Below are positions 8,684 through 63,434 of a DNA stretch of 64,000 nucleotides, piece by piece. Position 1 is the first letter of the stretch. Every line of letters starts with the position of its first letter. The notes beneath the pieces were generated by a model. That model had not been told where the DNA came from, did not search any database, and saw nothing but the letters and a program-made list of their open reading frames with translations. The DNA lies in contig OZ024741.1 in NCBI GenBank assembly GCA_964016885.1, forward strand, positions 216,938,001 through 217,002,000. The letters run 5' to 3'. The translations under genes and the position numbers were made by a program. This stretch comes from Eledone cirrhosa. Lineage: Eukaryota.

Positions 8684-11583
8684 CATCACAACAAATTGCA
8701 AAACGAGATCAATGCACTACTAAAAAAAACTACGCAACACCAACGGTATTATAGTAAAAGCGGACAAAACATCAAACGTATACACCATGAGCCTTAATAC
8801 ATACAATAATTTTATACGCCGTGAACTGCACAAAAAATACAAAATAAAAAACAGAATCTGCACTCACTAGCATTAATAAGGAAAGACTTAGCATAGTAAA
8901 AAAAATGAAAATATCTGATAGAACCGAGTCTCTAACCCCTTGTAACCCCACATTTAACCTAAAGAATCACAAAAATAATTTCGAAATAGACCCTGCATTT
9001 AGATTAATATGCTCATCGAAGTTGGATATAGGTAGAATTAGCAAGTATATACTAGATAGAGTAACCGCACAAATCAAGGACAAACTAGTAATTAAGCTAT
9101 GGGATAACACTAACGAAGCAATAGACTGGTTCAGCAAAATAGACAGTATAGAAACATCCAACTTTGTACAGTTCGACATTAATGGCTACTACTCATCCAT
9201 ATTCCAGTCACCCTATATAAAGCGCTAACGTTTGCTCAGAAAAATTCGGACCTTACCTCGAACGAAATTAAAATAATACTAGCTGCTAGGAGATTCGAAA
9301 ATAGTTACTGGGAACGAAAAAAACAGACAGAATAGCTTCGATATCACAATGGGATCTAACGACTCAGCACAGGTAACGGACTGGGAATATATAACGGTGG
9401 GAATATATATAGCGCACAACTTACATAAGGAATTCAATAACCTCCAGGGAGGAATTTATAGAGACGAGACACACCTTTTAGCCAAAAACTTAAATAATCA
9501 AAACATGGAAAAATTACGAAAAAACATCAGAGTCTTCTTCAACAAACTAGGCCTAGGTATCACTTTCGAACTTAACTCTAAAAAAGCAAACTTCTTAGAT
9601 GTAACACTCAACCTAAACACAGGATTAATAGAGCCCTTCCATAAAAATAACGAGAATCTAGCCTACATTAGTTATAACTCAAACCACCCCCGATCCATAA
9701 TTAACTCCATAACACAGTATATCCCTCAGAATATCCCGCCTATCTTCTAACCTAGAGATTTTTAACGAACACGCAAACTATTATAACAGCTTTATATAAG
9801 GCAGGACATAAAGAGGGGCTGGAATACATACCAGATAGAGACAGCAGCAACAAACCTAACGACAACTACACTAACCACACCTATAAAAATAACAAACATA
9901 GGACTAAGCATAGAATTAGACAACGAACACCAAAAATAACTGAACCGAACACTAATATAAGGACCCCTAAGAACTACAGAAGATCCAGAGATAGAAAATA
10001 CCTATGGTTCAATCCAATATTCAACTCCTATATAAAAACCAAACTACCTTCTACATTCTTTAAGCTAATAGACAAATACTTCCCTAAACTACACAAATAC
10101 CAAAGAATCATTAATAGAAGAACTATCAAGCGATCTTATTCTACTGCAGCCAACATAGAATCACACATACATAAAATCAACCACAAAAATATCTCTAAAG
10201 AAACTAACCTACCAACATACACCATAGCACCAAATACAAAACGCAAACACATAACAACATCGCAACCAAAAACACATCAGGGCGCATCACAACAAAGCAC
10301 TAATAGGCTTAAATCTCAACCCACCCACAACAACATACAAAACCACAACGGAGAACCTGCACACAAAAAAGCCTACAACTGTAACTGCCACCTACCGGAT
10401 AAGTGCCCACTGCAAAATAGATGCCTGGATTCGAGTATGGTGTACATGTGTACTGTAAATTCAGGCAACTCTACTTGGTTCCACGGCTGGGGAGTTAAAA
10501 AAAATGTGGTACGTCCACAGACACTCCATGAAGAACCGTAGACTGGAGAACTCTACGACGCTCGCCAATAAAATCTGGCAGCTTAAAAACACAAACCAGG
10601 AATATAGGATTAGCTGGTCAAAATTATCGGAAGCAAGGGCCTACAACAATGGGATGTCCCACTGCGGACTTTGTAATATGGAGCTATTCCATATTTTAAG
10701 GTACGATAAGATGCTGCTTAACAGCAAAATAGAAAGATCAATTTTCTGTAAGCATAAAATAGCTACCAAGTTCACAAATTTCAAACCACCGTGATTCGAG
10801 CCAGCAATCCTAAAATTAGAACTGAACCACCTGGATTTTAACGTATGGAATACACACCATCACACCGCTATTAACTGCCAAACGGCCAACTGGTCACTAG
10901 ATCATAAATCTCTTAACATCTCTTTCACCCCTCTCCCTGAAACCGCATCAACCCCATTAAGACAATACAATCAGCAAAAGATTTACCACACACATTTGTC
11001 AAACCTCCCTTCATCATCCACCCTTAGCCCTTAGATCTCATACTAGTATCTCCCAATTAATCTCTAATTTATTTATTTTCTTTTATCTGTCACTACCTCA
11101 GACTCTCTACACGTATCTATGTATGTTTCGAATATGACTTTTCATGTTAGCACTAAACCCACCACAGAATCCTTAAACGGACACTTACTCACCACCACCA
11201 CTATCATATTCTGTACTTATATGCTCTCACTTATCCTTATTTCTTTATATTTGTATTTTCTTATTTTTTTACTGTATCTTTTTTCTTGTCTTTTACTTTT
11301 TACTTTTTACATCTGTAACTTCTCTACCTATTTACCATATATATTTTATTATTGATCTTATTGTTTTGATTATACGTTATTTCTCTATATATAAATCTTG
11401 CCTTGTGTGAATTATTTTTGTATTCTGAGGAGTTGATCAGGGGTAAATAATGTAATGGAGATCGAGTGACGCAACTTCGAGCGATTAGCGACATCTAGAC
11501 TCACCTGATCAATGAAACAATTGTCAATACCTGAAATAAAGCCCCTTGTTGTACAGCCAATCATGTTACTCTTCATTCGTTCA
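8684..11583 (+). mobile_element. 5'-truncated, decayed Naiad-type Penelope-like element (RT + GIY-YIG) in intron 1
   Basis: Fragments KADKTSN, FVQFDINGYY, MGSNDSAQVTD, GGIYRDE, NFLDVTLNL, SNHP, WFNP, CNC..CPL..C and CGLC..E..CKH, with frameshifts. The 3' pLTR carries a hammerhead. Confidence 0.9.
11420..11530 (+). ncRNA. Type I hammerhead ribozyme in the Naiad 3' pLTR, expanded stem II
   Basis: GUAUU-CUGAGGA-GUUGAUCAGG...CCUGAUCAAU-GAAA-CAAUUG-UC-AAUAC. Stem III is palindromic. Confidence 0.88.
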
Positions 11584-11646
11584 CTATATATATATATATA
11601 TATATAATTATATATATATGCGTGTGTATGTGTGTATGTGTACGTG

Positions 11647-11776
<130 letters not shown>

Positions 11777-27817: not shown

Positions 27818-30609
27818 ATTATTATTATTATTATTATTGTTGTTGTTATTCCTTGAATCTCAGTCATTGATGTTGGTTAACTGGAAAGTCCGTTGGATTG
27901 AATATCAAGCCACTACCTGCAGCCTCAGATATTCAGGACGTATCGGAGGGTTCTTGCTGTTCCAAGCAAGCATGCCTTTTGAAGCGTTCCAAAAAGCGTG
28001 AAGGGGCCGATTTTCTTTAACCATCCCTGGAAACTTTTGGAGATAGTCCCCAGTGCGCCTATGACAATCGGGATCACTTTGACTTCATGGCAGTTCCAAA
28101 TCCTTTTCACCTCCCACTTTAGGTCCTGGTATCGGTTAATTTTCTCCCTCTCCTTCTCTTGCACTCTCGTGTCGAACGGGCAGGCCACATCCACAATCAG
28201 GCACGATCTTTTTTCTTTGTCCACAACCACCAGGTCAGGTCTATTGTGTTCCAGTTTTTTGTCCGTCTGTATCCTAAAATCCCACAGCACCTTCACCTGA
28301 TTGTTCTCCATCACCGCCTCTGGCCTATGCTCATACCATTTCTCAGAATGTGGTAAATTGTTTACTTTGCACAGGTGCCAGTGGATCACCCTGCCCATCA
28401 CATCGTGTCTCCAGCCCTTATAGTGGGTCTGGGCTAGGTGTTTACACTCGGACACAATGTGAGCCACAGTTTCCTCTCTCTCTCCACAGATCCTGCACAG
28501 TGGGCTAGCCTCCTCCTTGTAAATATGGTGCTTCAACCACTTCGTTTTGAGGGCCTGCTCCTGCGCAGCCATTAGCATTCCTTCTGTAGCCTTTTTGAGG
28601 TCTCCTCTTCTCAAACAGTTCCATGTCTGTGGATCTCTAAATTCAGTTTTCTCAAAGAAGGTACTATGAAGGGATTTTCCCTTAAGGCTGCTCTTCCTCC
28701 TTGATGTTATTTCCTCCTTGGACATCCCCTGGCCTACTGTCCCCTCCTTCAGTACAGTTCTGAGCATTGGCTCCTTACTATAGGTCACGTATTTGTATAG
28801 GTTGTTTTTCTCCATCTGAACACAGTCCTCTATGCTGATAAGACCTCTTCCACCCTCAGATCTCCTTAGGTAGAGTCTATCGACATCACTCCTCTTGTGG
28901 AACATGTTGTAGATAGTCAATAGCTTCCTAGTCTTCCTATCCATTTCTTTTTGTTCAGCAACATTCCATCTCAGAATTCCCGCACTGTACCTAATAATAG
29001 ACACAGCTCGGGAATTTACTGCGCTTATGGCATTTCTGCTGTTCAGATGTGACTTCAATACGCTCCTTACTCTCCGAATGTATTCAGTTCTTAACAATTC
29101 CTTCATTTTTTTGTTCTTTATGCCATCAGCCTCCAGAACGCCCAAATACTTGTATCCTTCCTCAGAGTCAATTTCCTTTATCATCTCACCTGTTGGTATC
29201 TGGATCCCGTTACTTCTGCTCAACTTACCCCTCCTCATCACAATGACTCCACATTTACCAATACCAAACTGCATACATATATCACTGCTGAAAATACGGA
29301 CAGTGTCAACAAGCACATCCAACTCCTTCTCACTTTTCCCGAAGAGCTTAAGATCGTCCATGAAGAGGAGGTGATTGATGGTAAGCTCTCCCCTTCCCAA
29401 CTTGTATCCTGCTCTCACTTTTCGCAGCATAATGGTCAAGGGCATCAGGGCAAGGACAAACAACAGAGGGGACAGGCTATCTCCCTGGAAGATACCTCTC
29501 TTGATCTTCACGCTTCCCAAGGATACTCCAGTTGATGTCAACTCTGTCTCCCAGGACCCCATACTCCTGCCTAGCAACTGTCTGATGTTATCTGCCACCC
29601 TGAAGATCTCCAGGCTTTTGGTGATCCAAGAATGAGGCACCATGTCAAATGCCTTTCTGTAGTCTATCCATCCCATGGCAAGATCAGTGTGTCTCCTCCT
29701 GCAATTCCCCATTACCATCTTATCAATAAGTAACTGGTCTTTTGTACCACGTGACTTCTTTCGGCATCCTTTCTGTTCGTCCGGTAACAAGTTGTTTGTG
29801 TGGAGGTGATGGTAGATTTCCTCAGACACAATGCTCGTCAACAGTTTCCACATTACGGACAGACATGTGATAGGTCTATAGTTGGTAACATCATTACCCT
29901 TGATTCGGTCTTTCATTATCAGAACTGTGGTACCTTTTGTCAACCACTCTGGCACCTCACCCGACACCAAGCAGTCATTGAACATGGCCGTCAGCTTCGG
30001 GTGGAGGGATGTTAAATGTTTAATCCAATACCCCTGCACACCATCTGGGCCTGGTGATTTCCAGTTGGTTAGTTTTTTGGCCTGCCCCTTAAGAGTTTCA
30101 ACTGTGATACTCAAATCAGTTTGTTGTTGTGCCTGCTCACCGATCTCCCTCTGTACTGTCTCAATCCACCCTGCCTGGACATTATGTCTAACATCCTGCT
30201 CCCATATTCCTCTCCAGAATGTTTTAGTTTGCTCCGCCCCAGGGATCAAGTCGTTGCCTCTTTCTTTCCCCTCAAGCTGTCCAAACAGCATCTTCTGGTT
30301 GTTGTCGAACATGCGGTTCTGTTTATACTGACTGACTCTGTTCTCGTATCGCCTGATTTTTGCACTCTTTGCTACAATGCGTTGCTTCAGTTCCTCTATG
30401 ATAATATTTAGCTTTTTCCTCCTAGTTTTGTATTTTATTTCCAGTCTATTTTTAGTGCCTATGTTTTTTAGTGTCCCATTCAGTAGTGACTCAAGCTTTC
30501 CTATGTCATTTCTCATTTCCCCGATTTGCCCACTCAGTCGCTTCTTCCACCACGGCTCTGCTCTTTCTTGTCTGTTGTTTCCTCTCGCTTTTATACCAAG
30601 TAGTTTCCT
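27818..30609 (-). mobile_element. 5'-truncated R4/Dong-type RLE LINE (family A), open ORF 27925-30516
   Basis: RT (FQGDSLSPLLF, HLLFMDDLKL), CCHC and RHD/RPD RLE. Near-identical to 39841-43233 and truncated exactly where a (TTA)n array begins. Confidence 0.96.
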
Positions 30610-33279
30610 ATTATTATTATTATTATTATTATTTGCATTTATCTTGCTTTATGTTTATACGAGTTATCACCAAGTCACAACCAGTGACCTCAAGAGACAA
30701 CAAGGTCCGCCATGTTCAAGAAAGAACACACATATTCACACATGCATCCTTAGTGTTTAGACTTGTGATGTACTTATATTGACAGGATCTTCCTTAGTAT
30801 ATGGGCAGTTCCCATTAGTACTATCTTTTGTATTTCTCCTATACGCGGGTTTCCTGGGATTTGCGATAAGTAGTCGTTAGACCCCTTAGCGCCTACAACC
30901 ACTGGTATTGTTTTAGTTCTCAATTTCCACATTTTTCCAATTTCTATCTCCAGGTCCTTATACTTGCTCAATTTTTCAAATGTTTTTATAGATACATTCT
31001 TGTCTATTGGAACAGACATATCAATTAGCAGGCATACCCTCCTTTGAAAGTCCTTCAATATTATATCAGGTCTATTTGCATCTATTTTTCGGTCTGTTTG
31101 GATGCTAAAGTTCCACAAGATTGAGATGTGATCTTTTTCAAGTATGGGAGGTGGTTGATGCTCCCACCAATTCTTTTGATGGGGCAGGTCAAAATGCTTA
31201 CACATTATCCAATGTATGTATTGTGCAGCTCTGTCATGCCTGTTTAGGTATTCGGTTGGAGCTATAGGACTGCACATTGAAATTATATGGTCAATGGTCT
31301 CTGGTTGTTTTTTGCATACACGGCATAATGGGCTGCACCCATTTTTTATTATGTTGGCTTGGTAATTTTTTGTTGGCAGACACTGATCTTGTGCCGATAT
31401 AATCAGTCCTTCAGTCTCCGATTTCAGTCCAGAGGATGCCAACCACTGATGGGTTAAAGTTTTGTCAACATCAGGATTGTTAGCTCGCTCTGGGTATTTT
31501 CCATACAGAGGCTTTTCTTGCCATTTCTTAGCCAGTTTCTGTAGCAGTTCTTTCTTTGCAGTTACTTTTACCTGCTTTGCTTTTTCTGTGTTTTCCATTT
31601 CAGCAGTAAATGGGACTTCTGAAATTTGTAGTCCATTACTGTATCTTTGTGCATCTTTTGTAATGGAATATGATCTTTTGGTGCTTTCGTGTTTCAAAAC
31701 GAGTTTGATCATCCAATCATGTGATTCCCTTAGATATGTGGATAATCCAATTGTTGCAGTTTTCAACGCAATGTCTAACTGGATTAACCCACGTCCTCCT
31801 TCTTTCCTAGGGAGATATATTCTATCTATGTCTGCCTTAGGGTGATGCATTCTGTGCATGGTTAAGAATTTTCGGATTTTTGTATCGAGCCTACGGATCT
31901 CTGTGCTTGACCAGTTGATGACATTGTAACTGTAGGTTACTACTGGTATGGCAAGCGTGTTTATGGCATCGATCCTATTCCTTGCATTCAATTCCGTTCT
32001 TAAGATTGCTCTGACTCTGCGGTAACATTCCTTCCTTATCCTTTCCCTCATTGTCGAGTGCTTGATTCCGTCTCCTTCACAAACACCTAGATATTTGTAA
32101 GTTTGTTCTTGATCAAGCTCTCTTATCACGTTCCCCCGATCAAGATTAATGTCTGAACTCTTCAGCAGCTTTCCTCTGGTGAACGTTGCTTTGGCGCATT
32201 TATCCAGTCCAAACTCCATTTTAATGTCATCACTGAACTGCTTCACAGTGGATAATAGCCCTTGCAATTGTTCATCATTTTTTGCGAATAGTTTCAGGTC
32301 ATCCATGTAGAACAGGTGATTAATGGTTTTGTCATAGACTCTATATCCATGTTTTGTTTCATTGAGCATTTTACTTAATGGTATAAGTGCGATGCAGAAT
32401 AAAAGCGGTGATAAAGAGTCACCCTGAAAAATTCCACAATTAATATTAACTTCTCCAGCTTCCAGTGATTTTGTTTCACTATTCAAAAGGAGTGTCGTTT
32501 TCCATGTCTTCATACTGAATGACAAAAACCTCCTGACAACGGGGGATATTTTGAAAATCTCTAAACAATTTTCAATCCAACTGTGTGGCAAACTATCAAA
32601 TGCTTTTTTATAATCTATCCAAGCAATCGATAGATTTTTGTGTCTATTATGACAATCTTCCAGTATCATTTTGTTAACCAGAAACTGATCCTTACAGCCA
32701 TATGAGCCTCGTTTACACCCTTTCTGCTCAATGGGAAATAGGTCATTTGTTATCAGGTGGTCATATGTGTATTCAGTTAGGACTGATGTTAAAATTTTAT
32801 ACATTGTGGTCAAGCAGGTTATCGGTCTGTAATTTTTGGGATTGTTTGTCTCATCATTCTTCGGTAGCAGGAATGTAATGCCATTAACTAGCCATGATGG
32901 TATCTTTTCTGGCTCCTTAACTATTTCATTGTAAAGTTGGGCCAACAGCTCATGAGACTCTGTGAAGGCATTTATCCAAAAGTTTTGTATTTTGTCTTTT
33001 CCTGGGGATTTCCATTTGCTGGTTTTTCTTAGAGCCAAGCGCAGCTGTTCAACTGTTATATTTTCCCATGTTTGTTCTTCAAGGTGAGCTGTTTCTTTCA
33101 TTTGTCTGTCTATCCATGGGGCATGTATGTTATGAACTTTTTCTTCGGCCCAGATCTTTTCCCAGAATTCTTGCACTTCCTCCTTGGGTGGTATTGATTT
33201 AGCAGTTATTGTTGACTTACCAATTTTTCTGTAGAAGTTTCTTTGGTTGTTTTTGAACATATTATTGTCATATTGAACA

Positions 33280-33282
<3 letters not shown>
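30610..33282 (-). mobile_element. 5'-truncated R4/Dong-type RLE LINE (family B), open ORF 30774-33260
   Basis: 828-aa RT-CCHC-RLE (HLFYMDDLKL, CRVC..HIISMC, RHD, RPDII). (TTA)n at both ends. Confidence 0.96.
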
Positions 33283-39840: not shown

Positions 39841-42800
39841 TCAGATATTCAGGACGTATCGGAGGGTTCTTGCTGTTCCAAGCAAGCATGCCTTTTGAAG
39901 CGTTCCAAAAAGCGTGAAGGGGCCGATTTTCTTTAACCATCCCTGGAAACCTTTGGAGATAGTCCCCAGTGCGCCTATGACAATCGGGATCACTTTGACT
40001 TCATGGCAGTTCCAAATCCTTTTCACCTCCCACTTTAGGTCCTGGTATCGGTTAATTTTCTCCCTCTCCTTCTCTTGCACTCTCGTGTCGAACGGGCAGG
40101 CCACATCCACAATCAGGCACGATCTTTTTTCTTTGTCCACAACCACCAGGTCAGGTCTATTGTGTTCCAGTTTTTTGTCCGTCTGTATCCTAAAATCCCA
40201 CAGCACCTTCACCTGACTGTTCTCCATCACCGCCTCTGGCCTATGCTCATACCATTTCTCAGAATGTGGTAGATTGTTTACTTTGCACAGGTGCCAGTGG
40301 ATCACCCTGCCCATCACATCGTGTCTCCAGCCCTTATAGTGGGTCTGGGCTAGGTGTTTACACTCGGACACAATGTGAGCCACAGTCTCCTCTCTCTCTC
40401 CACAGATCCTGCACAGTGGGCTAGCCTCCTCCTTGTAGATATGGTGCTTCAACCACTTCGTTTTGAGGGCCTGCTCCTGCGCAGCCATTAGCATTCCTTC
40501 TGTAGCCTTTTTGAGGTCTCCTCTTCTCAACCAGTTCCATGTCTGTGGATCTCTAAATTCAGTTTTCTCAAAGAAGGTACTATGAAGGGATTTTCCCTTA
40601 AGGCTGCTCTTCCTCCTTGATGTTATTTCCTCCTTGGACATCCCCTGGCCTACTGTCCCCTCCTTCAGTACAGTTCTGAGCATTGGCTCCTTACTATAGG
40701 TCACGTATTTGTATAGGTTGTTTTTCTCCATCTGAACACAGTCCTCTATGCTGATAAGACCTCTTCCACCCTCAGATCTCCTTAGGTAGAGTCTATCGAC
40801 ATCACTCCTCTTGTGGAACATGTTGTAGATAGTCAATAGCTTCCTAGTCTTCCTATCCATTTCTTTTTGTTCAGCAACATTCCATCTCAGAATTCCCGCA
40901 CTGTACCTAATAATAGACACAGCTCGGGAATTTACTGCGCTTATGGCATTTCTGCTGTTCAGATGTGACTTCAATACGCTCCTTACTCTCCGAATGTATT
41001 CAGTTCTTAACAATTCCTTCATTTTTTTGTTCTTTATGCCATCAGCCTCCAGAACGCCCAAATACTTGTATCCTTCCTCAGAGTCAATTTCCTTTATCAT
41101 CTCACCTGTTGGTATCTGGATCCCGTTACTTCTGCTCAACCTACCCCTCTTCATCACAATGACTCCACATTTACCAATACCAAACTGCATACATATATCA
41201 CTGCTGAAAATACGGACAGTGTCAACAAGCACATCCAACTCCTTCTCACTTTTCCCGAAGAGCTTAAGATCGTCCATGAAGAGGAGGTGATTGATGGTAA
41301 GCTCTCCCCTTCCCAACTTGTATCCTGCTCTCACTTTTCGCAGCATAATGGTCAAGGGCATCAGGGCAAGGACAAACAACAGAGGGGACAGGCTATCTCC
41401 CTGGAAGATACCTCTCTTGATCTTCACGCTTCCCAAGGATACTCCAGTTGATGTCAACTCTGTCTCCCAGGACCCCATACTCCTGCCCAGCAACTGTCTG
41501 ATGTTATCTGCCACCCTGAAGATCTCCAGGCTTTTGGTGATCCAGGAATGAGGCACCATGTCAAATGCCTTTCTGTAGTCTATCCATCCCATGGCAAGAT
41601 CAGTGTGTCTCCTCCTGCAATTCCCCATTACCATCTTATCAATAAGCAACTGGTCCTTTGTACCACGTGACTTCTTTCGGCATCCTTTCTGTTTGTCCGG
41701 TAACAAGTTGTTTGTGTGGAGGTGATGGTAGATTTCCTCAGACACAATGCTCGTCAACAGTTTCCACATTACGGGCAGACATGTGATAGGTCTATAGTTG
41801 GTAACATCATTACCCTTGATTCGGTCTTTCATTATCAGAACTGTGGTACCTTTTGTCAACCACTCTGGCACCTCACTCGACACCAAGCAGTCATTGAACA
41901 TGGCCGTCAGCTTCGGGTGGAGGGATGTTAAATGTTTAATCCAATACCCCTGCACACCATCTGGGCCTGATGATTTCCAGTTGGTTAGTTTTTTGGCTTG
42001 CCCCTTAAGAGTTTCAACTGTGATACTCAAATCAGTCTGTTGTTGTGCCTGCTCACCTATCTCCCTCTGTACTGTCTCAATCCACCCTGCCTGGGCATTG
42101 TGTCTAACATCCTGCTCCCATATTCCTCTCCAGAATGTTTTAGCTTGTTCCGCCCCAGGGATCAAGTCGTTGCCTCTTTCTTTCCCCTCAAGCTGTCCAA
42201 ACAGCATCTTCTGGTTGTTGTCGAACATGCGGTTCTGTTTATACTGACTGACTCTGTTCTCGTATCGCCTGATTTTGGCACTCTTTGCTACAATGCGTTG
42301 CTTCAATTCCTCTATGATAATATTTAGCTTTTTACTCCTAGTTTTGTATTTTATTTCCAGTCTATTTTTAGTGCCTATGTTTTTTAGTGTCCCATTCAGT
42401 AGTGACTCAAGCTTTCCTATGTCATTTCTCATTTCCCCGATTTGCCCACTCAGTCGCTTCTTCCACCACGGCTCTGCTCTTTCTTGTCTGTTGTTTCCTC
42501 TCGCTTTTATACCAAGTAGTTTCCTCACCGTATTTGCTGTTGCTTTGAGGATATTGTTGCACTGGTGAAGGCTCCTCGCCTCAAGGTATGGGATGACTTT
42601 GTTTACCTTAGCTGTTGTTTCTTTTAACTTTTTCCTGTCTACAAATCTTAGGTTCATAGGTCTCCCACTATCATTGTTCAATTCATCTACCACTAAATTT
42701 AGGATGTCAACCGAATCTTGTCCTAGCCCGTCAGCATTCATCTCCTCAGTGGCCGTATCTCTGTTCCAGGTATTATTTATCTCAGTATTCAGATCATTGT

Positions 42801-43233
42801 CTGCTTCGGGTGGTTCCTCCGTTCTCAGGACCTCCTCACCTTCATTTCCCACCGGCTCGCTTGTCTGGCATACTACACCCGCCATCTCCAAGCCATTCTC
42901 TCTGCTCAGTTCCTCCAGTTCCAGCTCGCTTATCCACCCATTAGTTCTTATTACCCGAGCCTGCCCGGCCAATTTTTGTTCATCTAATTTAAATAAACCA
43001 ATCTCGTTCCAGATGTTATGCATCCGTCTCCTGTAGCCCCTCTCCTTGGGGTTACTTTTCAGGTAGCATTGCATAACAGTTCTATTCAATTCTTTCGTCC
43101 AGTTGGTTCTGGCCCCTTTCCTTCTTCTTCTTCCTCCAACATCATCAGTATTTGGTTGACAGTCAGGTTCCTGCTGCTGAGCCAGGGGGCACCTGTTGGG
43201 TGAGAGTCTGTCACATGACGTTCTAGTCTCCAT
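39841..43233 (-). CDS. Intact 1130-aa ORF of the R4/Dong-type RLE LINE (family A)
   Basis: N-terminal WTKELN..VMQCY...GYRRRMHNIW domain, RT, CCHC and PD-(D/E)xK RLE, with no stops. 3' UTR and (TAA)n tail at 39717-39840. Confidence 0.96.
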   Translation of the reverse strand: METRTSCDRLSPNRCPLAQQQEPDCQPNTDDVGGRRRRKGARTNWTKELNRTVMQCYLKSNPKERGYRRRMHNIWNEIGLFKLDEQKLAGQARVIRTNGWISELELEELSRENGLEMAGVVCQTSEPVGNEGEEVLRTEEPPEADNDLNTEINNTWNRDTATEEMNADGLGQDSVDILNLVVDELNNDSGRPMNLRFVDRKKLKETTAKVNKVIPYLEARSLHQCNNILKATANTVRKLLGIKARGNNRQERAEPWWKKRLSGQIGEMRNDIGKLESLLNGTLKNIGTKNRLEIKYKTRSKKLNIIIEELKQRIVAKSAKIRRYENRVSQYKQNRMFDNNQKMLFGQLEGKERGNDLIPGAEQAKTFWRGIWEQDVRHNAQAGWIETVQREIGEQAQQQTDLSITVETLKGQAKKLTNWKSSGPDGVQGYWIKHLTSLHPKLTAMFNDCLVSSEVPEWLTKGTTVLIMKDRIKGNDVTNYRPITCLPVMWKLLTSIVSEEIYHHLHTNNLLPDKQKGCRKKSRGTKDQLLIDKMVMGNCRRRHTDLAMGWIDYRKAFDMVPHSWITKSLEIFRVADNIRQLLGRSMGSWETELTSTGVSLGSVKIKRGIFQGDSLSPLLFVLALMPLTIMLRKVRAGYKLGRGELTINHLLFMDDLKLFGKSEKELDVLVDTVRIFSSDICMQFGIGKCGVIVMKRGRLSRSNGIQIPTGEMIKEIDSEEGYKYLGVLEADGIKNKKMKELLRTEYIRRVRSVLKSHLNSRNAISAVNSRAVSIIRYSAGILRWNVAEQKEMDRKTRKLLTIYNMFHKRSDVDRLYLRRSEGGRGLISIEDCVQMEKNNLYKYVTYSKEPMLRTVLKEGTVGQGMSKEEITSRRKSSLKGKSLHSTFFEKTEFRDPQTWNWLRRGDLKKATEGMLMAAQEQALKTKWLKHHIYKEEASPLCRICGEREETVAHIVSECKHLAQTHYKGWRHDVMGRVIHWHLCKVNNLPHSEKWYEHRPEAVMENSQVKVLWDFRIQTDKKLEHNRPDLVVVDKEKRSCLIVDVACPFDTRVQEKEREKINRYQDLKWEVKRIWNCHEVKVIPIVIGALGTISKGFQGWLKKIGPFTLFGTLQKACLLGTARTLRYVLNI

Positions 43234-44318
43234 TTCACCGTTATTCGAACTGTTTATGTTCGATATTTAAACACTCTTATCGAGGATTGGCGAATGTATG
43301 TTTACATAGCCATCTGTGGATCCGCCATCCCACTTGGCCCTTGTGTGGCATTATCACCACGCTGTATACGAACACACATAAACAAACAAACACACGGGCA
43401 GAAAGGGCCCCAAAAATGAATAAGCATAAGTTTCATTGTAATGTAGTATTCGAATGTCTGACTTAGTTTTTGTTTTTTAAGTTTTACTTTTTCCCCCCTC
43501 TTCTCTGTCCGTCCGCCTGCTTCTCTCTTCATTCTTATTTTCTTTACGTTTTTGGGGTTTCTTTTTTTGTTTTTGTTTTTCTCTGTTTGTTTTTCTCGTT
43601 TTTGCTGTTGTTGCTGTGCTGCTTTGGTTTTGTTGTTTGTTTTTTCTTTTTTCTTTTGAGTCTATCTATATATTTTGATGCCTTCCTCTTTGTTAGTAGT
43701 AGGAATTCTATAATGTGGAAGTAGCAGCCAGCAGGGAGAAGTGGGAGACTGGCGGCGGTAGCGATACTGAGACAGTGGTGGTGGTGATGTCGATACCGAG
43801 GCAGTGGTGGCGGTGATGCGACCGTATTACTGTAGTGATGGTGCTGTAGCGGTGGCAGCAGTGAAGGAGTCAAGGGGTGGTGGCGGCGGTGATGGGATAG
43901 TGGTGGTAATGATGGCCGTAGTGAGCGGTGGCGGTGAAGGTGAAAATGTCGTTATCTGGCTGTTGTGTTTAGTGTACACAGATGATGGGGTGGGTGGTGT
44001 ATCTAGTTTCTGGTGTTGGTGAGTTTAGCTGTCCTATATAGTGTAGCCAGAGGAGAGGAGGGGGGTGGTTCTTCTTCTTCCATTTATAGCCATTTTTTTT
44101 TTTTTTGGATATACAGTGTACAATACAAAGTTGAATATTTGAATATTTGAGCCTTATAACAATATATTTTGGGTCCGAATTTTTGGGGGCTCAAGCCGGG
44201 TGCTTTACGTAGCATTTGTACTAAGAGTTGTTATTTCACAAATGATTTAAATATGTTAAAAATTCAAAACTTACGGGAGCGATTTCATGACCTCCGTCAC
44301 CTCGTGCGTCTTCTTCCC
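43234..44318 (-). mobile_element. Long leader or decayed upstream ORF 5' of the intact Dong-type ORF, starting at a (TTA)n array
   Basis: Minus-strand sequence begins immediately after (TAA)n at 44319 and has an ACC/CCA-rich low-complexity stretch. Whether it belongs to the Dong element is uncertain. Confidence 0.45.
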
Positions 44319-54974: not shown

Positions 54975-55398
<424 letters not shown>

Positions 55399-55446
55399 CA
55401 GGAAAGAAGGTTTACATGGTTTGCTATACAAAAAAGTTTTTAATCA

Positions 55447-55559
55447 CATAGCTTACATTTGTTTCACTGAGCTGGCCTGTCTAGAGATCGCTATCCGCCT
55501 AATTTTGCGTCACTCGATCGCCAATACAGAATTATAACCAGTCAGATCTTCGGAGCATG
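55447..55559 (-). ncRNA. Hammerhead with CCGAAGA core and expanded stem II (3' pLTR)
   Basis: Reverse complement of 63043-63155 with few differences. Confidence 0.75.
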
Positions 55560-55912
55560 CGAGAATGAAGAAAATACACAGGCAAGAAAAGAAAAGAAAA
55601 TATGGAGTAGTTATGGCATTCAATTAGAACAATAACAACAATTATTACAACAATGCTATCAATAAACTATTTAAGGAGACCCTGACATTACTTAGGTGGG
55701 GGGTATATAATGTATCTAATGTTACGGCGTGAAAATCAGCTGTCATAAGGCAAAAAGTATCGTAGTGTGTATCAATTTTAAATTATAAAGATAAGCTAGT
55801 TTTTACAGTCCTTCTCTTCATCTTCAACAGTATACATGAGTGGGACCACTGTCAAAGCTCAATAGTTGTAGAGTTAATACAGAGGTTAACGAATTAATAT
55901 ACGCATATATCT

Positions 55913-59750: not shown

Positions 59751-62700
59751 AATATTCTATCATACTATTTCATTATAATACCATTATATATATTTTAAAG
59801 GATTGTAAATAAAACGAGTAAATCAGACAAAGTTGGAATTCCTCTTATTAATATAATCTTCTATACACAATCATACACACCCGTGTATATTTACCTATCT
59901 ATATCTATATATATAAATATATATACACATATATGTGTACATAGACACATACATACACATCAATATACACTCGTACAAAAATATACATACATGCAAAGAG
60001 AAAAGCGTGCTAATTGTAGTTATGGCAAAAAGAAGGTAAAGTAACATTGTAGTAGTGAAATGAGAAAAACTAGGATCTAGGATCAAATGATTGCAGCAGC
60101 TGAGAAGGAGTAAGATTGTTGGTAGATGAGGTATTTACAGACAATTGTGTGGTATAGACTTGTGAAGGAAATAGTATACTTAATGAATATATTTCTGTGG
60201 GTAGTAGGTATCCTAATTTAAAGCTATGTTATGTTGGTTCGATTCACGGAGGTTTGAATCTTATGAATTTAGTGGCTATACTATGTCTGCAGAAGATAGA
60301 TCTTTCTAACTTATTATTAAGTAGCCTTTTAACATTTCTAAGGATATACAATAGCTCAAGATCACACAGCCCGCAATAGGACATCCCTGTACTATAGGTT
60401 TTAGCAGCCGACAACTTCGACCAGTTGATAGTGTAGCTAGCGTTGCTGTCCTTCAATTCCCATATTTTTCTGGCGAGGGTGGTGGAACCCATAAGTGCTC
60501 GATTTTTCATTGAGTGCCTGTGCACATACCATCTTTTCTTAAAAGAACCCGCGGTGGATCCTATGTAATTCCAGGTGGAGTTACCCGAGATGACAGTGCA
60601 CATGTACACCAGGCTCGAATCGAGACATCTGTTCGCCAATGGGCACCTATCTGGGAGGTGACAGTTGCAGTTTGAGGCGCTATTTTGTGCAGCTTTTACA
60701 TTCCTATTTAGTACCCTGTTATAAGTGGGTTGTGATATATGCCCCATGGGGTTTTGCTGCTGCGCGTTTGTATGCGCTTGTGGTTGTGATGTTGTGATGA
60801 GTTTGTGCTTATGTATAGGTGCAATTGATTTACTTGAGATATTTCTGTGGTTGATCTTGCGTATGTGTGATTCTATGTTAGCTGCTGTTGAGAAAGAGAG
60901 TTTTATAGTAGATCTATTGAGTATTTTGTGATATCTATGCGAGATAGGGAAGTGTTTATCTATTAGTTTAAAGAATGTAGAGGGCAGTCTAGTTTTTATA
61001 GAGGAGTTGAATATTGGGTTGAACCATAGGTATTTTCTTTGTCTGTTTCTTCTATTGTTTCTAGGGTTTACGTTATTAGTGTTTTGGCCGTTTACTCTAG
61101 GTGTTACATGTCTAACCCTATGTCTAGTCAAGCTATTCCTATTATTATGTGAGCGGTTGGAGTAGAAATTACTAGGATTGTTTATGTTGTCCTTATTCAC
61201 TATATACTGTAGTTTATCTTATGACCGGCCCTACTTAATGCTGCATTATAATAGTCAGCATGCTCGTTAAAGATTTCTAGGTTTGAGGATAGGCGGGATA
61301 TTCGGAGGGATATACTACGTGCTATGGATTTAATTATGGATTTGGGGTGATTTGAGTTGTAACTAATGTAGGCAAGATTTTCATTATTTTTGTGGAAAGG
61401 TTCTATTAATCCAGTATTTAGATTTAGAGTTACATCTAGAAAATTTACCTTCTTATGGTTTAGTTCGTAGGTAATACTTAGGCCTAGTTTTTTGAAGAAT
61501 ATTCTAATATTTTTCCTTAGTCTTTCCATGCTCTGGTTGTTTAGGTTCCTAGCTATAAGTAACGTGTCGTCCCTATAAATTCCTCCTTGGAGGTTACTGA
61601 ATTCCTTATGTAGGTTGTGTGCTATGAATAGCCCCACGATATCTGTAATTTGCGCAGAATCATTTGATCCCATTGTAATATCGAAGCTATTTATTCTATC
61701 CTTTCTTACCCAGTAGTTATTTTCAAATTTTACGATAGTCCTTCTAGCCGCTATTATTATTTCAATTTCATCATGGGTAAGATTAGAGTTATTTTGGGCA
61801 AATATAAGCGCCTTATCTAGGGTAGCTGGGGATATGGATGCATAATAGTCGTCTATATCAAATTGTATGAAGTTACACGTCTCCCTATTTTGTATTTTAT
61901 TGAACCATTTAATTGCCTCGTTAGTGTTGCCCCATAAATTGATTTCTAGTTTACCCTTTATTTGTGCGATTACCCTATCTAGAATGTTTTTGCTAATTTT
62001 ACCTATGTCTGACTTGGATGGGCATATTAATCTAATGGTGGGATTAGTTTCAAAGTTATTTTTGTGATCTTTCAGGTTAAATGTAGGGTTGCACGGGGTA
62101 AGCGGTTCGGTCCTATCTGAAATTCCGAGTTTATTAACTATCTTGAGGCCCTCCATGTTTATGCTGGTGAGTGTAGATTCATATGTTTTTTTATATTTTT
62201 TATGTAGTTCACGCTGAATAAAGTTATTGTATGTGTTAATGTCCATAGAGTATACGTTTGATGTTTTGTCTGCTTTTACTATGATACCGTTAATGTCTTT
62301 TAGTTTTTTAAGTAATGTATTTAAGTCATTTTGCAATTTGTTGTGATTTGTTCTTTTTTTAAATTTAGTTTCACTTATCATGTTCATAAGGTCCAGCTCG
62401 AAGGCATCGAGTGCGGGGTTGTTTGGCGGGTTTTTGCAGGATTTAAACCCGTAATTCTCCTTGGAAAATTCCCTTCTGTTGGTATTCGGTCCCTTATCGA
62501 AATGGTAAGCTTTCCATCGGACCCTGCGGATGAAATCATTAGTCCGTCGTATCATGCCCAGTGTATAGTCCTTTTTTGTAGGTACAGGTTTGTTTTTTTA
62601 GTGACATACCTATACAGTGCTTCTCCATGTTGTTGCCGTGCGTTAATGGTGTTGCTCGACCAGGTGGGAGCTAAATATACGGATTAACAAATAATAGTTA

Positions 62701-62959
62701 AATGCAGTCCACTTAGGTGAAGTCCAGTTATGGTATTCCAGGTAGTGGATGATATTAACGCTTGGCTTGGTTTGACTCAACAAGGCGTTTTCATAGTGAT
62801 GCTGCGGGTGTGCTGTAATTCCTATGTTGTAAACACTTGGAGTAATAATGAATCAGGAAAGAAGGTTTACATGGTTTGCTATAAAAAAAAGTTTTTAATC
62901 ACATAGCTTACTGTCTAGAGATCGCTATCCGCCTAATTTTGCGTCACTCGATAATAATT

Positions 62960-63385
62960 GTTGTTGTTATTGTTCTAATTGAATGCCATAACTACTCCAT
63001 ATTTTCTTTTCTTTTCTTGCCTGTGTATTTTCTTCATTCTCGCATGCTCCGAAGATCTGACTGGTTATAATTCTGTATTGGCGATCGAGTGACGCAAAAT
63101 TAGGCGGATAGCGATCTCTAGACAGACCAGTTCAGTGAAACAAATGTAAGCTATGTGATTAAAAACTTTTTTGTATAGCAAACCATGTAAACCTTCTTTC
63201 CTGATTTATTATTACTCCAAGTGTTTACAACATAGGAATTACAGCACACCCGCAGCATCACTATGAAAACGCCTTGTTGAGTCAAACCAAGCAAACCAAG
63301 CCAAGCGTTAATATCATCCACTACCTGGAATACCATAACTGGACTTCACCTAAGTGGACTGCATTTAACTATTATTTGTTAATCC

Positions 63386-63386
<1 letters not shown>
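62960..63386 (+). mobile_element. Inverted pLTR at the 5' end of the Naiad element
   Basis: 63146-63386 is the reverse complement of 62678-62911. Confidence 0.9.
63043..63155 (+). ncRNA. Hammerhead with CCGAAGA core and expanded stem II
   Basis: CAUGCU-CCGAAGA-uCUGACUGGU...ACCAGuUCAGu-GAAA-CAAAUG-UA-AGCuAUG. Confidence 0.75.

Positions 63387-63434
<48 letters not shown>

What the first reader, a model, noticed from the sequence alone, without database searches (positions are those of the whole stretch)
11432..11513. Conserved UGA/GA (K-turn or SECIS-core-like) module inside hammerhead stem II of two Naiad subfamilies
Seen: the hammerheads at 11420 and at 63043/55447 differ in stems I-III, yet both have a stem II insert of about 80 nt sharing the exact 15-mer GATCGAGTGACGCAA (11460-11474; 63083-63097), a CGC/GCG mini-stem with different loops, then TAGCGA and TCTAGAC. 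In the 63043 copy it can fold as GAUCG-ag-UGA-CGC(aaaauuag)GCG-GA-uag-CGAUC, i.e. tandem G-A pairs next to a bulge. The 11420 copy is one base short. Established: such cores bind L7Ae-family proteins (15.5K, SBP2), and some Naiad elements are reported selenoproteins with SECIS elements. Inference: a protein-binding module grafted onto a ribozyme. Alternatively TGACGCAA is a CRE/CEBP-like promoter site in the pLTR. The helix is far too short for a canonical SECIS.
Basis: partly seen in the sequence, partly recalled or inferred. Interest (0 to 1): 0.75.

Follow-up and report, generated by a model that had tools for sequence, protein, structure and literature searches.

The report
Conserved hairpin extending retrotransposon hammerhead ribozymes
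A conserved hairpin of about 49 bases caps stem II of thousands of hammerhead-ribozyme motifs carried by Penelope-like jumping genes in this genome; it lacks the conserved G-A core of the proposed K-turn/SECIS motif and likely serves as a protein-docking platform, which is untested.

Summary
The shared 15-mer is real: 3 exact window copies plus one with 1 mismatch, and 1010 in the genome against 3 for a reversed control. It lies in stem II of a type I hammerhead motif. The host elements have reverse transcriptase followed by a C-terminal GIY-YIG-like endonuclease, so they are canonical Penelope-like elements, not Naiads.

I aligned 41 sequences (40 subfamily representatives plus the window copy). 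In most subfamilies its "UGA" pairs as U-A, G.U, A-U. The insert is a 17-pair rod (88% paired) with two identical 2x1 loops (A,N opposite G) 11 bases apart, one bulge and an 8-nt loop.

A phylogeny-aware count gives 27 pair-preserving changes against 13.0 +/- 4.2 for shuffled partners (8 of 3000 shuffles reach 27). The rod is more conserved (1.2-1.5 bits per column) than stem I and basal stem II (0.9-1.0).

Long stem II inserts are general here: 4182 canonical-core and 4665 C4-core motifs, none of those tested found by Rfam.

Function is inferred: most likely protein docking on the element's RNA. The feature is a new variant of a known kind. K-turn, SECIS, bZIP-site and mini-intron readings are not supported.

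The parts
11420..11424 (+). Hammerhead stem I, 5' strand (GUAUU)
   Evidence: Pairs with 11526-11530. Stem I pairs 5-112 (AU 13, GC 10) and 6-111 (CG 18, UA 15) vary compensatorily across subfamilies.
11425..11431 (+). Hammerhead core CUGAGGA (C3-A9)
   Evidence: C3, G5, A6 and G8 are invariant in 41 of 41 aligned sequences, but the search patterns required them.
11432..11441 (+). Basal stem II, 5' strand (10 pairs with 11504-11513; 10.1-11.1 is G.U)
   Evidence: Read. The script scan finds 10 consecutive pairs. Pairs 17-96 (UA 20, CG 7, AU 6) and 20-93 (AU 25, GU 10, GC 4) vary.
11442..11451 (+). A-rich 5' strand of the asymmetric junction (10 nt, opposite 11501-11503)
   Evidence: Poorly conserved, 0.93 bits per column.
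11452..11500 (+). Conserved distal hairpin (alignment columns 36-84): a 17-pair rod. Outer 2x1 loop 11454-11455 opposite 11498. Inner 2x1 loop 11465-11466 opposite 11488. Bulge at 11484. Apical loop 11473-11480.
   Evidence: 88.2% of cells paired over 17 pairs in 41 aligned sequences. Internal-branch test. Column conservation. This window copy carries two mismatches in the rod (A11461 x C11492, G11460 x A11493).
11460..11474 (+).
11504..11513 (+). Basal stem II, 3' strand
11514..11525 (+). GAAA, 2-pair stem III with palindromic loop (CAAUUG), U16.1 and C17. Cleavage is predicted after 11525.
   Evidence: Position 17 is never G (C 16, U 21, A 4 of 41). Cleavage was not tested.
11526..11530 (+). 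Stem I, 3' strand (AAUAC)
11535..11540 (+). AATAAA, 9 nt after the predicted cleavage site
   Evidence: AATAAA or ATTAAA stands at this place in most of the 41 sequences (alignment printed). Use as a poly(A) signal is inferred.
11541..11584 (+). Conserved 3' terminal segment. The insertion ends at ...TTCAC, followed by (TA)n.
   Evidence: In the 45 of 53 A-type copies printed, the sequence after ...TTTCAC either runs into (TA)n or continues into the element body.
8685..10806 (+). Decayed coding region of element A (ORF pieces 8848-9228, 9283-9750, 9756-10541)
   Evidence: 72.55% nucleotide identity over 2157 nt to 62347-60232 (-). ORF list.
63043..63155 (+). B-type hammerhead-like motif: core CCGAAGA at 63049-63055, distal hairpin 63075-63123, GAAA at 63137-63140, predicted site after 63148
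   Evidence: The MFE fold shows the rod. It belongs to a homogeneous subfamily.
55447..55560 (-). Second B-type copy, inverted relative to 63043
   Evidence: 55393-55647 is 98.4% identical to 63209-62955. Sequence.
62905..62953 (-). 5'-truncated B-type copy that starts inside the 15-mer. It lacks 21 nt including GAAA and lies head-to-head with the 63043 copy.
   Evidence: 62672-62952 is 89.4% identical to 63394-63084.
60244..62597 (-). Element B coding region: RT-like ORF 62597-61200, then ORF 61218-60244 in another frame with a Cys-rich linker and a GIY-YIG-like C-terminus
   Evidence: No Pfam family at E<=0.001.

Best explanation
The 15-mer is part of a ~49-nt distal hairpin that extends stem II of type I hammerhead motifs in the pseudo-LTR of Penelope-like elements whose endonuclease-like domain is C-terminal, and this hairpin likely acts as a docking platform for a protein (predicted: the element's own RT/endonuclease protein), not as a K-turn or SECIS core.

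Shown: the sequence, its copy number, its place inside a motif that obeys the hammerhead rules, the domain order of the host element, and the pairing pattern across subfamilies.

The structure is as follows. A basal stem II of 9-10 pairs leads to an asymmetric junction (about 10 nt against 3 nt). Then comes a 17-pair rod interrupted by two identical 2x1 loops (5'-A,N opposite G). Their adenines are 11 nt apart, which I infer places them on one face of the helix. The rod also has one bulged base and is capped by an 8-nt loop.

Inferred: that the unit works as RNA, that the twin loops are the recognition surface, and that the partner is the element's protein or a host factor. The domain is kept in subfamilies whose catalytic core carries C4 or U9. 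Its role is therefore probably not to speed cleavage.
For: (1) Real, abundant and always seen in this context. The 15-mer has 1010 genome copies against 3 for the control. The module pattern has 4540 against 15. TCTAGAC...GAAACAAWTGT has 4878 against 0.

(2) Hammerhead rules are met in the 41 aligned sequences. Position 17 is never G, N7 is variable, and stems I and II vary compensatorily.

(3) Structure. 84.4% of cells are paired, against 30-43% when partners are slid. 123 cells changed on both sides, against 54.0 +/- 9.0 for shuffles (0 of 500 reach it). The rod is 88.2% paired.

(4) Phylogeny-aware count on branches leading to at least 2 copies (132 copies). There are 27 pair-preserving changes (3 double), 13 disrupting and 9 restoring. 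Shuffled partners give 13.0 +/- 4.2, and 8 of 3000 shuffles reach 27. Doubles are 0.47 +/- 0.68, and 34 of 3000 reach 3. Slid partners give 4-15 preserving changes.

(5) Unpaired bases are near invariant: A38 41/41, A49 38/41, G72 40/41, G82 38/41. The rod holds 1.2-1.5 bits per column, against 0.9-1.0 for stem I, basal stem II and the junction.

(6) The rod's length is fixed. Nearly all listed module matches are 39 nt.

(7) The module is kept with C4 cores in the B, C, G and F families.

(8) Analogy. In the Anolis Poseidon element the protein binds RNA next to the hammerhead. That hammerhead cleaves only with protein present, reverse transcription starts internally downstream of it, and the protein is predicted to be a dimer (Frangieh 2024, PMC11167929, main text read). 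Here, A-type insertions end about 59 nt after the predicted cleavage site.
Against: There are no binding, probing or expression data. No RNA run was available.

The strongest covariations in the rod (pairs 44-77, 47-74, 42-79) trace to about one deep split between two clades. treekit's independent-pairs test had no power, and non-partner columns gave the same result.

RNAalifold on the sequence alignment predicts only the 3-pair mini-stem.

Single-sequence folding is not unusually stable. Z-scores run from -1.52 to +1.64 in 8 sequences, and the full rod appears in the MFE or centroid of only some of them.

In the Anolis element, RNA truncated to +20 still supported insertion in vitro and hammerhead mutants did not affect it. 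Stem II is therefore not needed there for target-primed reverse transcription.

Conservation could not be tested in another species. The metagenome and viral contig scans gave 0 hits.

TCTAGAC conservation is inflated for the sequences picked with the pattern.
Confidence: 0.45

Rival explanations
1. K-turn or SECIS-core-like module that binds an L7Ae-family protein (15.5K, SBP2).
For: In the B subfamily the bases can be drawn as helix, internal loop, UGA/GA, then a CGC/GCG helix. SBP2 prefers an internal loop next to the G.A/A.G tandem (Clery 2007, PMC1874613, abstract and passages).
Against: The tandem G52.A69 + A53.G68 is present in 1 of 41 aligned sequences, and a 3' GA in 2 of 41. In the rest, U51-A71 (39/41), G52-Y70 (37/41) and R53-U69 (33/41) pair normally. 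There is no 3-nt bulge with GA abutting the other helix. The helix beyond the 'core' has 3 pairs, whereas all SECIS elements have a long helix II. No Rfam SECIS match at E<=10. Reading TGA as Sec joins no ORF pieces.
Confidence: 0.04
2. A DNA-level regulatory site in the pseudo-LTR promoter: TGACGCAA as a CRE/CEBP-type bZIP site.
For: Penelope-like elements are thought to be transcribed from a promoter in the pseudo-LTR. TGACGCAA is exact in the A, B and D subfamilies. That this word is a bZIP site is recalled, not tested.
Against: The word is not kept in C (GTAACGTGAA), E (ATAACGCAAC) or F (GAGTGGCACT). G55 changes to A together with C66 to U (GC 20, AU 16). That pattern fits pairing in a single strand, not a duplex binding site. 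The best conserved bases are the loop bases and GUA.U/UAGAC, not the bZIP word.
Confidence: 0.08
3. The 47 nt from G36 to G82 are a spliceosomal mini-intron inside stem II. Splicing would leave a compact hammerhead.
For: The near-invariant bases look like splice signals: GUA.U at the start, UGAC 29 nt before the end, and a pyrimidine run plus UAG at the end. Penelope-like elements are known to keep introns, and in D. virilis an intron ends at hammerhead helix I (Cervera 2014, PMC4209133, passages).
Against: Of 178 motifs with a 25-45 nt stem II, none of the 100 listed shows precise loss of columns 36-82. Position +5 is U in 41/41 and the exon side is not AG. The fixed length and pair-preserving changes fit a hairpin better. 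No RNA data.
Confidence: 0.08
4. No function of its own. The insert is inherited baggage of one successful lineage, and the apparent conservation and covariation reflect relatedness and recent amplification.
For: Many non-partner columns 'covary' as strongly as partners because of one deep clade split. independent_pairs shows about one event per pair. Folding energies are ordinary. The excess conservation is modest, about 0.3-0.5 bits per column.
Against: The coding regions of A and B are only 72.55% identical, yet the loop bases are 38-41 of 41. On internal branches, preserving changes exceed shuffled partners (8 of 3000 shuffles reach the observed count) and slid partners. The rod's length is fixed across clades.
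Confidence: 0.15
5. An RNA element that tunes the ribozyme or translation. It could act as a folding switch controlling when the hammerhead cleaves. It could also be an IRES-like platform for the uncapped RNA left by cleavage.
For: Hammerheads in 5' UTRs of RNA viruses are reported to support translation initiation (PMC13725137, passages). In full-length copies the motif lies upstream of the ORF. Alternative MFE folds compete with the hammerhead fold.
Against: The rod is kept in families with C4 or U9 cores, which are expected (recalled, not tested) to cleave poorly. Nothing here bears on translation.
Confidence: 0.12

Closest known systems
Minimal/type I hammerheads in pseudo-LTRs of Penelope-like elements (Cervera and de la Pena 2014, PMC4209133)
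   Same: Same place (pseudo-LTR near the element's end) and type I topology. Stem III is short (2 pairs) with a palindromic loop, suited to dimer cleavage. Stem I is short, and there are thousands of copies in subfamilies.
   Different: Published helix II is 'larger than usual' at 6-8 pairs with a small loop. Here stem II spans 70-95 nt with a conserved distal rod. Rfam 15 finds none of the motifs tested. Searches of the paper library (listings and passages only) turned up no description of such inserts.
Poseidon element of Anolis (PAc): protein-assisted hammerhead and internal start of reverse transcription (Frangieh 2024, PMC11167929)
   Same: A hammerhead is followed within about 60-90 nt by the point where genomic copies end. 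The target is AT-rich or (TA)n. There are tandem and inverted arrangements and a 'tail'.
   Different: The PAc hammerhead is compact and overlaps the ORF start. Here the motif carries the long rod, is followed by AATAAA, and lies a few hundred nt before the ORF. Whether the protein touches stem II is unknown in both.
K-turn (15.5K/Snu13p/L7Ae sites) and SECIS core (SBP2)
   Same: Helix - loop - helix with purines in the loop. The B subfamily can be drawn with UGA/GA.
   Different: There is no 3-nt bulge closed by tandem G.A/A.G. The tandem is in 1 of 41 aligned sequences. The distal helix is far shorter than SECIS helix II.
Naiad clade of Penelope-like elements (Craig 2021, PMC8557442)
   Same: (TA)n target preference, and inverted 5'-truncated copies next to the upstream pseudo-LTR.
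   Different: Naiads have an N-terminal endonuclease, a CxC domain and no canonical hammerhead. Here the endonuclease-like domain is C-terminal and a hammerhead motif is present.
3' UTR RNA structures recognised by the reverse transcriptases of R2 and stringent LINEs (recalled, no paper read here)
   Same: A conserved hairpin near the template's 3' end in a retrotransposon that uses target-primed reverse transcription. This is what the rod may work like.
   Different: Here the hairpin is embedded in a ribozyme helix, and no binding has been shown.

Membership tests
Type I hammerhead ribozyme | Core C3-U4-G5-A6-N7-G8-A9 and G12-A13-A14 | tested here: met
   11425-11431 reads CUGAGGA and 11514-11516 reads GAA. 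The descriptors 'cuganga' and 'gaaa' are those used by Craig 2021. Not met by the 63043/55447 copies, which read CCGAAGA.
Type I hammerhead ribozyme | Three helices around the core, A15.1-U16.1, and a non-G base at position 17 | tested here: met
   Stem I 5 pairs, stem II 10 basal pairs, stem III A-U plus C-G. Position 17 is C 16, U 21, A 4, G 0 of 41. Stems I and II show compensatory types.
Type I hammerhead ribozyme | Match to the curated Rfam hammerhead models | tested here: not met
   No match at gathering score in the window. None at E<=10 in the two local stretches. None at E<=1 in 14 loci. The long stem II is the likely reason (inference).
Type I hammerhead ribozyme | Self-cleavage after position 17 | not testable with these tools
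   No RNA run was listed. No assay was possible.
Penelope-like element, canonical (C-terminal endonuclease) clades | Reverse transcriptase followed by a C-terminal GIY-YIG endonuclease | tested here: inconclusive
   P0001 aligns collinearly with residues 72-522 of the neighbouring 775-aa RVT_1 + GIY-YIG ORF (E 8e-05). P0002 residues 198-239 align with residues 682-721 at the start of its GIY-YIG domain (E 0.015). Pfam itself gives no hit for P0001 or P0002. The clade (Neptune, Nematis or Poseidon) was not determined.
Penelope-like element, canonical (C-terminal endonuclease) clades | Pseudo-LTRs, inverted 5'-truncated copy, hammerhead in the pseudo-LTR | tested here: met
   Repeats 55393-55647, 62672-62952 and 62955-63394. 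Features as described in Craig 2021.
Naiad | N-terminal GIY-YIG endonuclease linked to the RT by a CxC domain | tested here: not met
   The RT-like ORF starts about 350 nt after the upstream pseudo-LTR copy and shows no endonuclease motif before it. The GIY-YIG-like motif lies after the RT.
Naiad | No canonical hammerhead | tested here: not met
   Element A ends with a motif that meets the hammerhead rules. Craig 2021 states that Naiads lack them.
K-turn | 3-nt bulge closed by tandem G.A and A.G pairs (definition from Clery 2007) | tested here: not met
   The loops are 2x1 (A,N opposite G). The tandem is possible in 1 of 41 aligned sequences.
SECIS element | Non-Watson-Crick quartet with UGA/GA, a long helix II, and a 3' UTR position after an ORF with in-frame UGA | tested here: not met
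   The GA partner is in 2 of 41. The helix beyond it has 3 pairs. No Rfam SECIS match. Reading TGA as Sec joins no ORF pieces.

The most novel reading that the evidence does not exclude
Penelope-like elements of this animal carry an undescribed RNA domain grafted onto hammerhead stem II. It is a rod with twin A,N/G loops on one helical face that recruits the element's dimeric RT/endonuclease protein (or a host factor). The hammerhead fold serves as a scaffold rather than a cutter, since about half of the long-stem-II motifs have a C4 core. Such long-stem-II hammerheads escape Rfam and the usual descriptors.
Probability: 0.22. Interest if true: 0.7.

Novelty: new variant of a known kind. Interest (0 to 1): 0.5.

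Why it matters
Hammerheads in Penelope-like elements have been known since 2014, but their role is unsettled. The Anolis work shows that cleavage is protein-assisted and dispensable for insertion in vitro.

This genome holds thousands of motifs that keep the hammerhead architecture but carry a 70-95 nt stem II. One superfamily also keeps a conserved twin-loop rod there, even when the core has C4. That gives a concrete, mutable RNA element for asking what the element's protein recognises, and whether the hammerhead fold acts as a scaffold.

It also shows a blind spot. Rfam 15 and descriptor searches with short stem II limits would report these elements as lacking hammerheads.

Tried and rejected
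Rfam at gathering score and at permissive E-values gave no hammerhead, SECIS or other relevant family.

RNAalifold on the MAFFT alignment returned only the 3-pair mini-stem.

My first model, a symmetric 5x5 internal loop, was replaced by the 2x1 loop + 3 pairs + bulge register after the MFE folds of L153 and L155 suggested it.

An all-against-all column covariation scan for a pseudoknot was swamped by clade structure and gave nothing usable. A three-state match between columns 5 and 85 was left unexplained.

treekit independent_pairs had no power.

The look-up of sequencing runs listed no RNA holder, only 4 contig-kept runs of unknown kind from one study.

Cross-species search with a degenerate pattern gave 0 hits in metagenome contigs and 0 in viral contigs.

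The search of earlier findings gave nothing on this genome or sequence.

The mini-intron idea found no precise-loss copies among the 100 listed.

CpG decay as the source of canonical CUGA cores was rejected. CCAANGA has only 269 hits, against 4665 for CCGANGA and 4182 for CTGANGA.

Resemblances to a tRNA T-arm/B box, the 11-nt tetraloop receptor, the loop E/sarcin-ricin motif and the SRP Alu UGUAAU motif were considered by eye and dropped. The bases concerned either pair with covariation or do not fit; none was tested by a tool.

Two rare variants with a different distal hairpin (L200, L201) looked decayed and were not used.
Full report
OBSERVATION

The 15-mer GATCGAGTGACGCAA stands exactly at 11460-11474 (+), 63083-63097 (+) and 55505-55519 (-). 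A fourth copy with one mismatch lies at 62939-62953 (-). Dinucleotide shuffles give 0.01 matches on average, and 0 of 100 shuffles reach 4. The genome (3.0 Gb; the window is C2:216938001-217002000) holds 499 + 511 = 1010 exact copies, against 3 for the reversed control.

The copy at 11420-11530 obeys the hammerhead sequence rules:
- stem I GUAUU/AAUAC
- core CUGAGGA
- ten basal pairs of stem II (11432-11441 with 11504-11513)
- GAAA
- a two-pair stem III with the palindromic loop CAAUUG
- C at position 17 (script scan)

The 63043 and 55447 copies are near-identical inverted duplicates, 98.4% over 255 nt. They are not canonical. The core reads CCGAAGA, stem II opens with U.U and has a bulge. Both copies measure 41 nt from GATCG to TCTAGAC and align without a gap there.

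Rfam 15 reports no hammerhead, SECIS or other relevant family. This holds at gathering score over the window, at E<=10 in the two local stretches, and at E<=1 in 14 related loci.

HOST ELEMENT

Region 8685-10806 (+) is 72.55% identical over 2157 nt to 62347-60232 (-). So the two motifs belong to two related elements, A (+) and B (-).

B's first ORF (62597-61200) has RT-like motifs. Its second ORF (61218-60244, another frame) ends with a Cys-rich stretch and a GIY-YIG-like motif. Pfam finds nothing in either. However, the first ORF aligns collinearly with residues 72-522 of the neighbouring 775-aa ORF at 57007-59334 (E 8e-05). The second aligns with residues 682-721 of that ORF (E 0.015). Pfam scores that neighbouring ORF as RVT_1 (27.5 bits, just under its cut-off of 29.6) plus GIY-YIG (27.8 bits, cut-off 22.6).

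The domain order is therefore RT then endonuclease, which is the canonical order for Penelope-like elements. Naiads are defined by an N-terminal endonuclease and are reported to lack canonical hammerheads (Craig 2021, PMC8557442, passages only). The 'Naiad' label is not supported. I did not determine which canonical clade this is. Reading TGA as selenocysteine does not join the ORF pieces in either element.

HOW WIDESPREAD

- TCTAGAC, 11-15 nt, then GAAACAAWTGT: 4878 matches against 0 for the control.
- CTGANGA, 70-95 nt, then GAAACAATTGT: 4182 against 4.
- The same with CCGANGA and GAAACAAWTGT: 4665 against 10.
- The same with a 25-45 nt gap: only 178 against 5.

In this genome, hammerhead motifs with this stem III almost always carry a long stem II. 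The module pattern TYGANTG, 15-21 nt, AGYRANNTNTAGAC gives 4540 matches against 15, and it excludes the abundant C subfamily. Other families (loci L188-L199) have unrelated inserts of 62-95 nt that also fold as closed extensions of stem II.

SAMPLING AND ALIGNMENT

From loci fetched, I extracted 133 distinct motifs of the module-bearing group. I clustered them at 90% identity into 45 clusters and aligned 40 cluster medoids plus the window's A copy (A1: 41 rows, 117 columns, mean column identity 74%).

Five medoids were dropped. L166, L136 and L052 have internal deletions. L169 has an internal duplication. L022 belongs to another family.

Selection caveats:
- The core and GAAACAAWTGT were required by the searches.
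- TCTAGAC was required for the loci.
- I picked the loci by eye from the list as module-bearing.

STRUCTURE OF THE INSERT

RNAalifold on A1 predicts only the 3-pair mini-stem. A hand-drawn model was tested with the count of structure pairs. My first version had a symmetric 5x5 loop. The MFE folds of L153 and L155 suggested a better register, which I then tested:
- U51-A71 pairs in 39 of 41.
- G52-Y70 pairs in 37 of 41 (GU 25, GC 9, AU 3).
- R53-U69 pairs in 33 of 41.
- Base 68 is bulged.

With this register the whole structure is 84.4% paired, against 30-43% when partners are slid by 1-3 columns. It has 123 cells changed on both sides, against 54.0 +/- 9.0 in shuffles (0 of 500 reach it). The distal rod (columns 36-56 with 65-84) has 17 pairs that are 88.2% paired.

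The rod is interrupted by two loops of the same form. One is A38,W39 opposite G82 (the commonest flanks, UAUU/AGA, in 26 of 41). The other is A49,N50 opposite G72 (GAGU/AGC in 20 of 41, GAUU/AGC in 8). The two adenines are 11 nt apart. That they therefore lie on one helical face is my inference.

Near-invariant unpaired bases are A38 41/41, A49 38/41, G72 40/41 and G82 38/41.

Information per column:
- stem I 1.02
- basal stem II 0.91
- junction 0.93
- outer rod 1.36
- outer loop 1.52
- columns 49-53 and 68-72: 1.27
- mini-stem 1.20
- apical loop 0.87

HOW GOOD IS THE COVARIATION EVIDENCE?

It is weaker than the raw counts suggest. An all-against-all scan shows many non-partner columns 'covarying' equally well, because the sample splits into a GAUCG clade and an AAUUG clade. 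treekit's independent-pairs test finds about one informative contrast per pair, and non-partner controls give the same result.

I therefore counted changes by parsimony on a FastTree tree of 132 copies, using only branches that lead to at least two copies. These are changes that happened in lineages that went on copying. For the 17 rod pairs there are 27 pair-preserving changes (3 of them double), 13 disrupting and 9 restoring. With partners shuffled among the same columns, the mean is 13.0 +/- 4.2 preserving (8 of 3000 shuffles reach 27) and 0.47 +/- 0.68 double (34 of 3000 reach 3). Slid partners give 4-15 preserving and 0-2 double (earlier version with 14 pairs).

Single-sequence folding is unremarkable, with z-scores from -1.52 to +1.64 in 8 sequences. 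I call the rod moderately well supported.

A K-turn needs a 3-nt bulge closed by tandem G.A and A.G. SECIS elements add a long helix II (Clery 2007, PMC1874613, abstract and passages). The tandem (G52.A69 with A53.G68) is possible in 1 of 41 aligned sequences (the B subfamily). A GA on the 3' strand occurs in 2 of 41. Elsewhere the 'UGA' is simply helical. The helix beyond it has 3 pairs.

The alternative bZIP reading of TGACGCAA fails as a general explanation. The word is absent from the C, E and F clades. Its G55 changes together with the pairing partner C66 (GC 20, AU 16, GU 3).

CONTEXT THAT BEARS ON FUNCTION

Nine nt after the predicted cleavage site stands AATAAA (11535-11540). AATAAA or ATTAAA is at that place in most of the 41 sequences, followed by a conserved AC-rich stretch. 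In the A-type copies printed (45 of the 53 collected), the sequence after ...TTTCAC either runs into (TA)n, which marks the end of an insertion, or continues into the element body.

This matches the picture from the Anolis Poseidon element (Frangieh 2024, PMC11167929, main text read):
- Reverse transcription starts internally, downstream of the hammerhead.
- The protein binds RNA close to the hammerhead.
- The hammerhead cleaves only when the protein is present.
- Cleavage is dispensable for insertion in vitro.
- The protein is predicted to be a dimer.

Against a simple transfer of that picture: RNA lacking most of the Anolis hammerhead still supported insertion.

CORE VARIANTS

C at position 4 is not a decay product of CpG. 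The other decay product, CCAANGA, has only 269 matches (control 19), against 4665 for CCGANGA and 4182 for CTGANGA. C4 occurs in the B, C, G and some F families, and in an unrelated-insert family. U at position 9 (CUGAUGU) marks the A2, E and some D subfamilies, in 25 of 132 copies.

Natural hammerhead cores match the consensus 'almost without exception', and U4 contacts the A6-N7 phosphate (Perreault 2011, PMC3088659, passages and section 8). That C4 or U9 cripple cleavage is recalled from older mutagenesis work that I did not read here. The rod is intact in these families. This argues that its role is not to boost catalysis.

MECHANISM, STATED WITH ITS LIMITS

Shown: a conserved, probably base-paired 49-nt rod caps stem II of a motif that obeys hammerhead rules, in the pseudo-LTR of a Penelope-like element whose endonuclease-like domain is C-terminal.

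Inferred: it works as RNA, and its twin A,N/G loops are a recognition surface. The partner is most likely the element's own protein (or a host factor) during RNP assembly, with the hammerhead fold as a scaffold.

Rivals are listed with their odds: inherited baggage, a ribozyme or translation tuner, a promoter site, a mini-intron, and a K-turn/SECIS core. For the mini-intron, none of the 100 listed short-stem-II motifs shows precise loss of columns 36-82.

NOVELTY

Published hammerheads of Penelope-like elements have helix II of 6-8 pairs (Cervera 2014, PMC4209133, passages). Craig 2021 tried spacers of 7-17 nt and noted half-cores 35-50 nt apart. Five library searches found no paper describing stem II inserts of this size or this rod (listings and selected passages only, supplements not opened). 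Subscription journals are outside the library, so this is not proof of absence. I rate it a new variant of a known kind.

WHAT COULD NOT BE DONE

- Expression, cleavage and splicing: no RNA run was listed.
- Other species: 0 matches in metagenome and viral contig scans, and no relatives are held for this genome.
- Any binding test.

Noticed in passing
window 63049-63055 and 55554-55548 (-); genome-wide: About half of the long-stem-II hammerhead motifs have C instead of U at core position 4. CCGANGA has 4665 hits, CTGANGA 4182 and CCAANGA 269. C4 is therefore a state of copying lineages in several families (B, C, G, some F, and one unrelated-insert family), not CpG decay.
   Followed up: partly
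loci L004, L005, L008, L009, L020, L022, L030, L086 and others: Subfamilies A2, E and part of D read CUGAUGU (U at core position 9) in 25 of 132 sampled copies. Stem I shows a compensating change (GUACU/AGUAC).
   Followed up: partly
loci L188-L199 (G000 C1): At least five other hammerhead families have unrelated stem II inserts of 62-95 nt that fold as closed hairpins or a three-way junction. One (L196-L198) contains GGTTCGATCC, which looks like a tRNA T-arm/B box. One (L191-L193) has AAATAGCGAGG, reminiscent of the module's 3' strand.
   Followed up: partly
window 57007-59334 (+): An uninterrupted 775-aa ORF with RVT_1 (just under the Pfam cut-off) and a GIY-YIG domain. This is a second, different Penelope-like element. 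It lies between element B's coding region and the B-type pseudo-LTR copy at 55393-55647, possibly inserted into B. No hammerhead was found beside it by my strict scan.
   Followed up: no
window 62672-63394: A head-to-head inverted pair of B-type pseudo-LTR copies (89.4% over 311 nt). The minus-strand copy starts inside the 15-mer and lacks 21 nt including GAAA. Similar inverted pairs 90-2500 nt apart are common in the genome list (for example L001, L017).
   Followed up: partly
loci L010, L044, L057, L058, L059, L088, L105: 5'-truncated copies are joined to (TA)n through a recurrent extra segment of about 60 nt beginning GGGGTAACAAG... This is probably the 'tail' described for Penelope-like elements.
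   Followed up: no
window 11535-11584 and alignment: AATAAA/ATTAAA lies 9-12 nt after the predicted cleavage site. It is followed by a conserved TTGTAC.G....ACCAT stretch in all clades, before the point where insertions end. This may be the counterpart of the AC-rich stem-loop where the Anolis element starts reverse transcription.
   Followed up: partly
alignment A1 columns 5 and 85: The stem I base at column 5 and the base right after UAGAC (column 85) form A-U, G-C or U-A in 33 of 41 sequences, with three pair types. This could be a tertiary contact or a coincidence of three clades.
   Followed up: no
window 19199-47900: A cluster of LINE-like ORFs (RVT_1, Exo_endo_phos, zf-RVT) on both strands. 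This includes 27925-30648 (-), 30774-33281 (-) and 39841-43266 (-, 1141 aa).
   Followed up: no
window 11585-11700 and many loci: Insertions sit in (TA)n microsatellites. The window copy is followed by (TA)n and then (TG)n.
   Followed up: no
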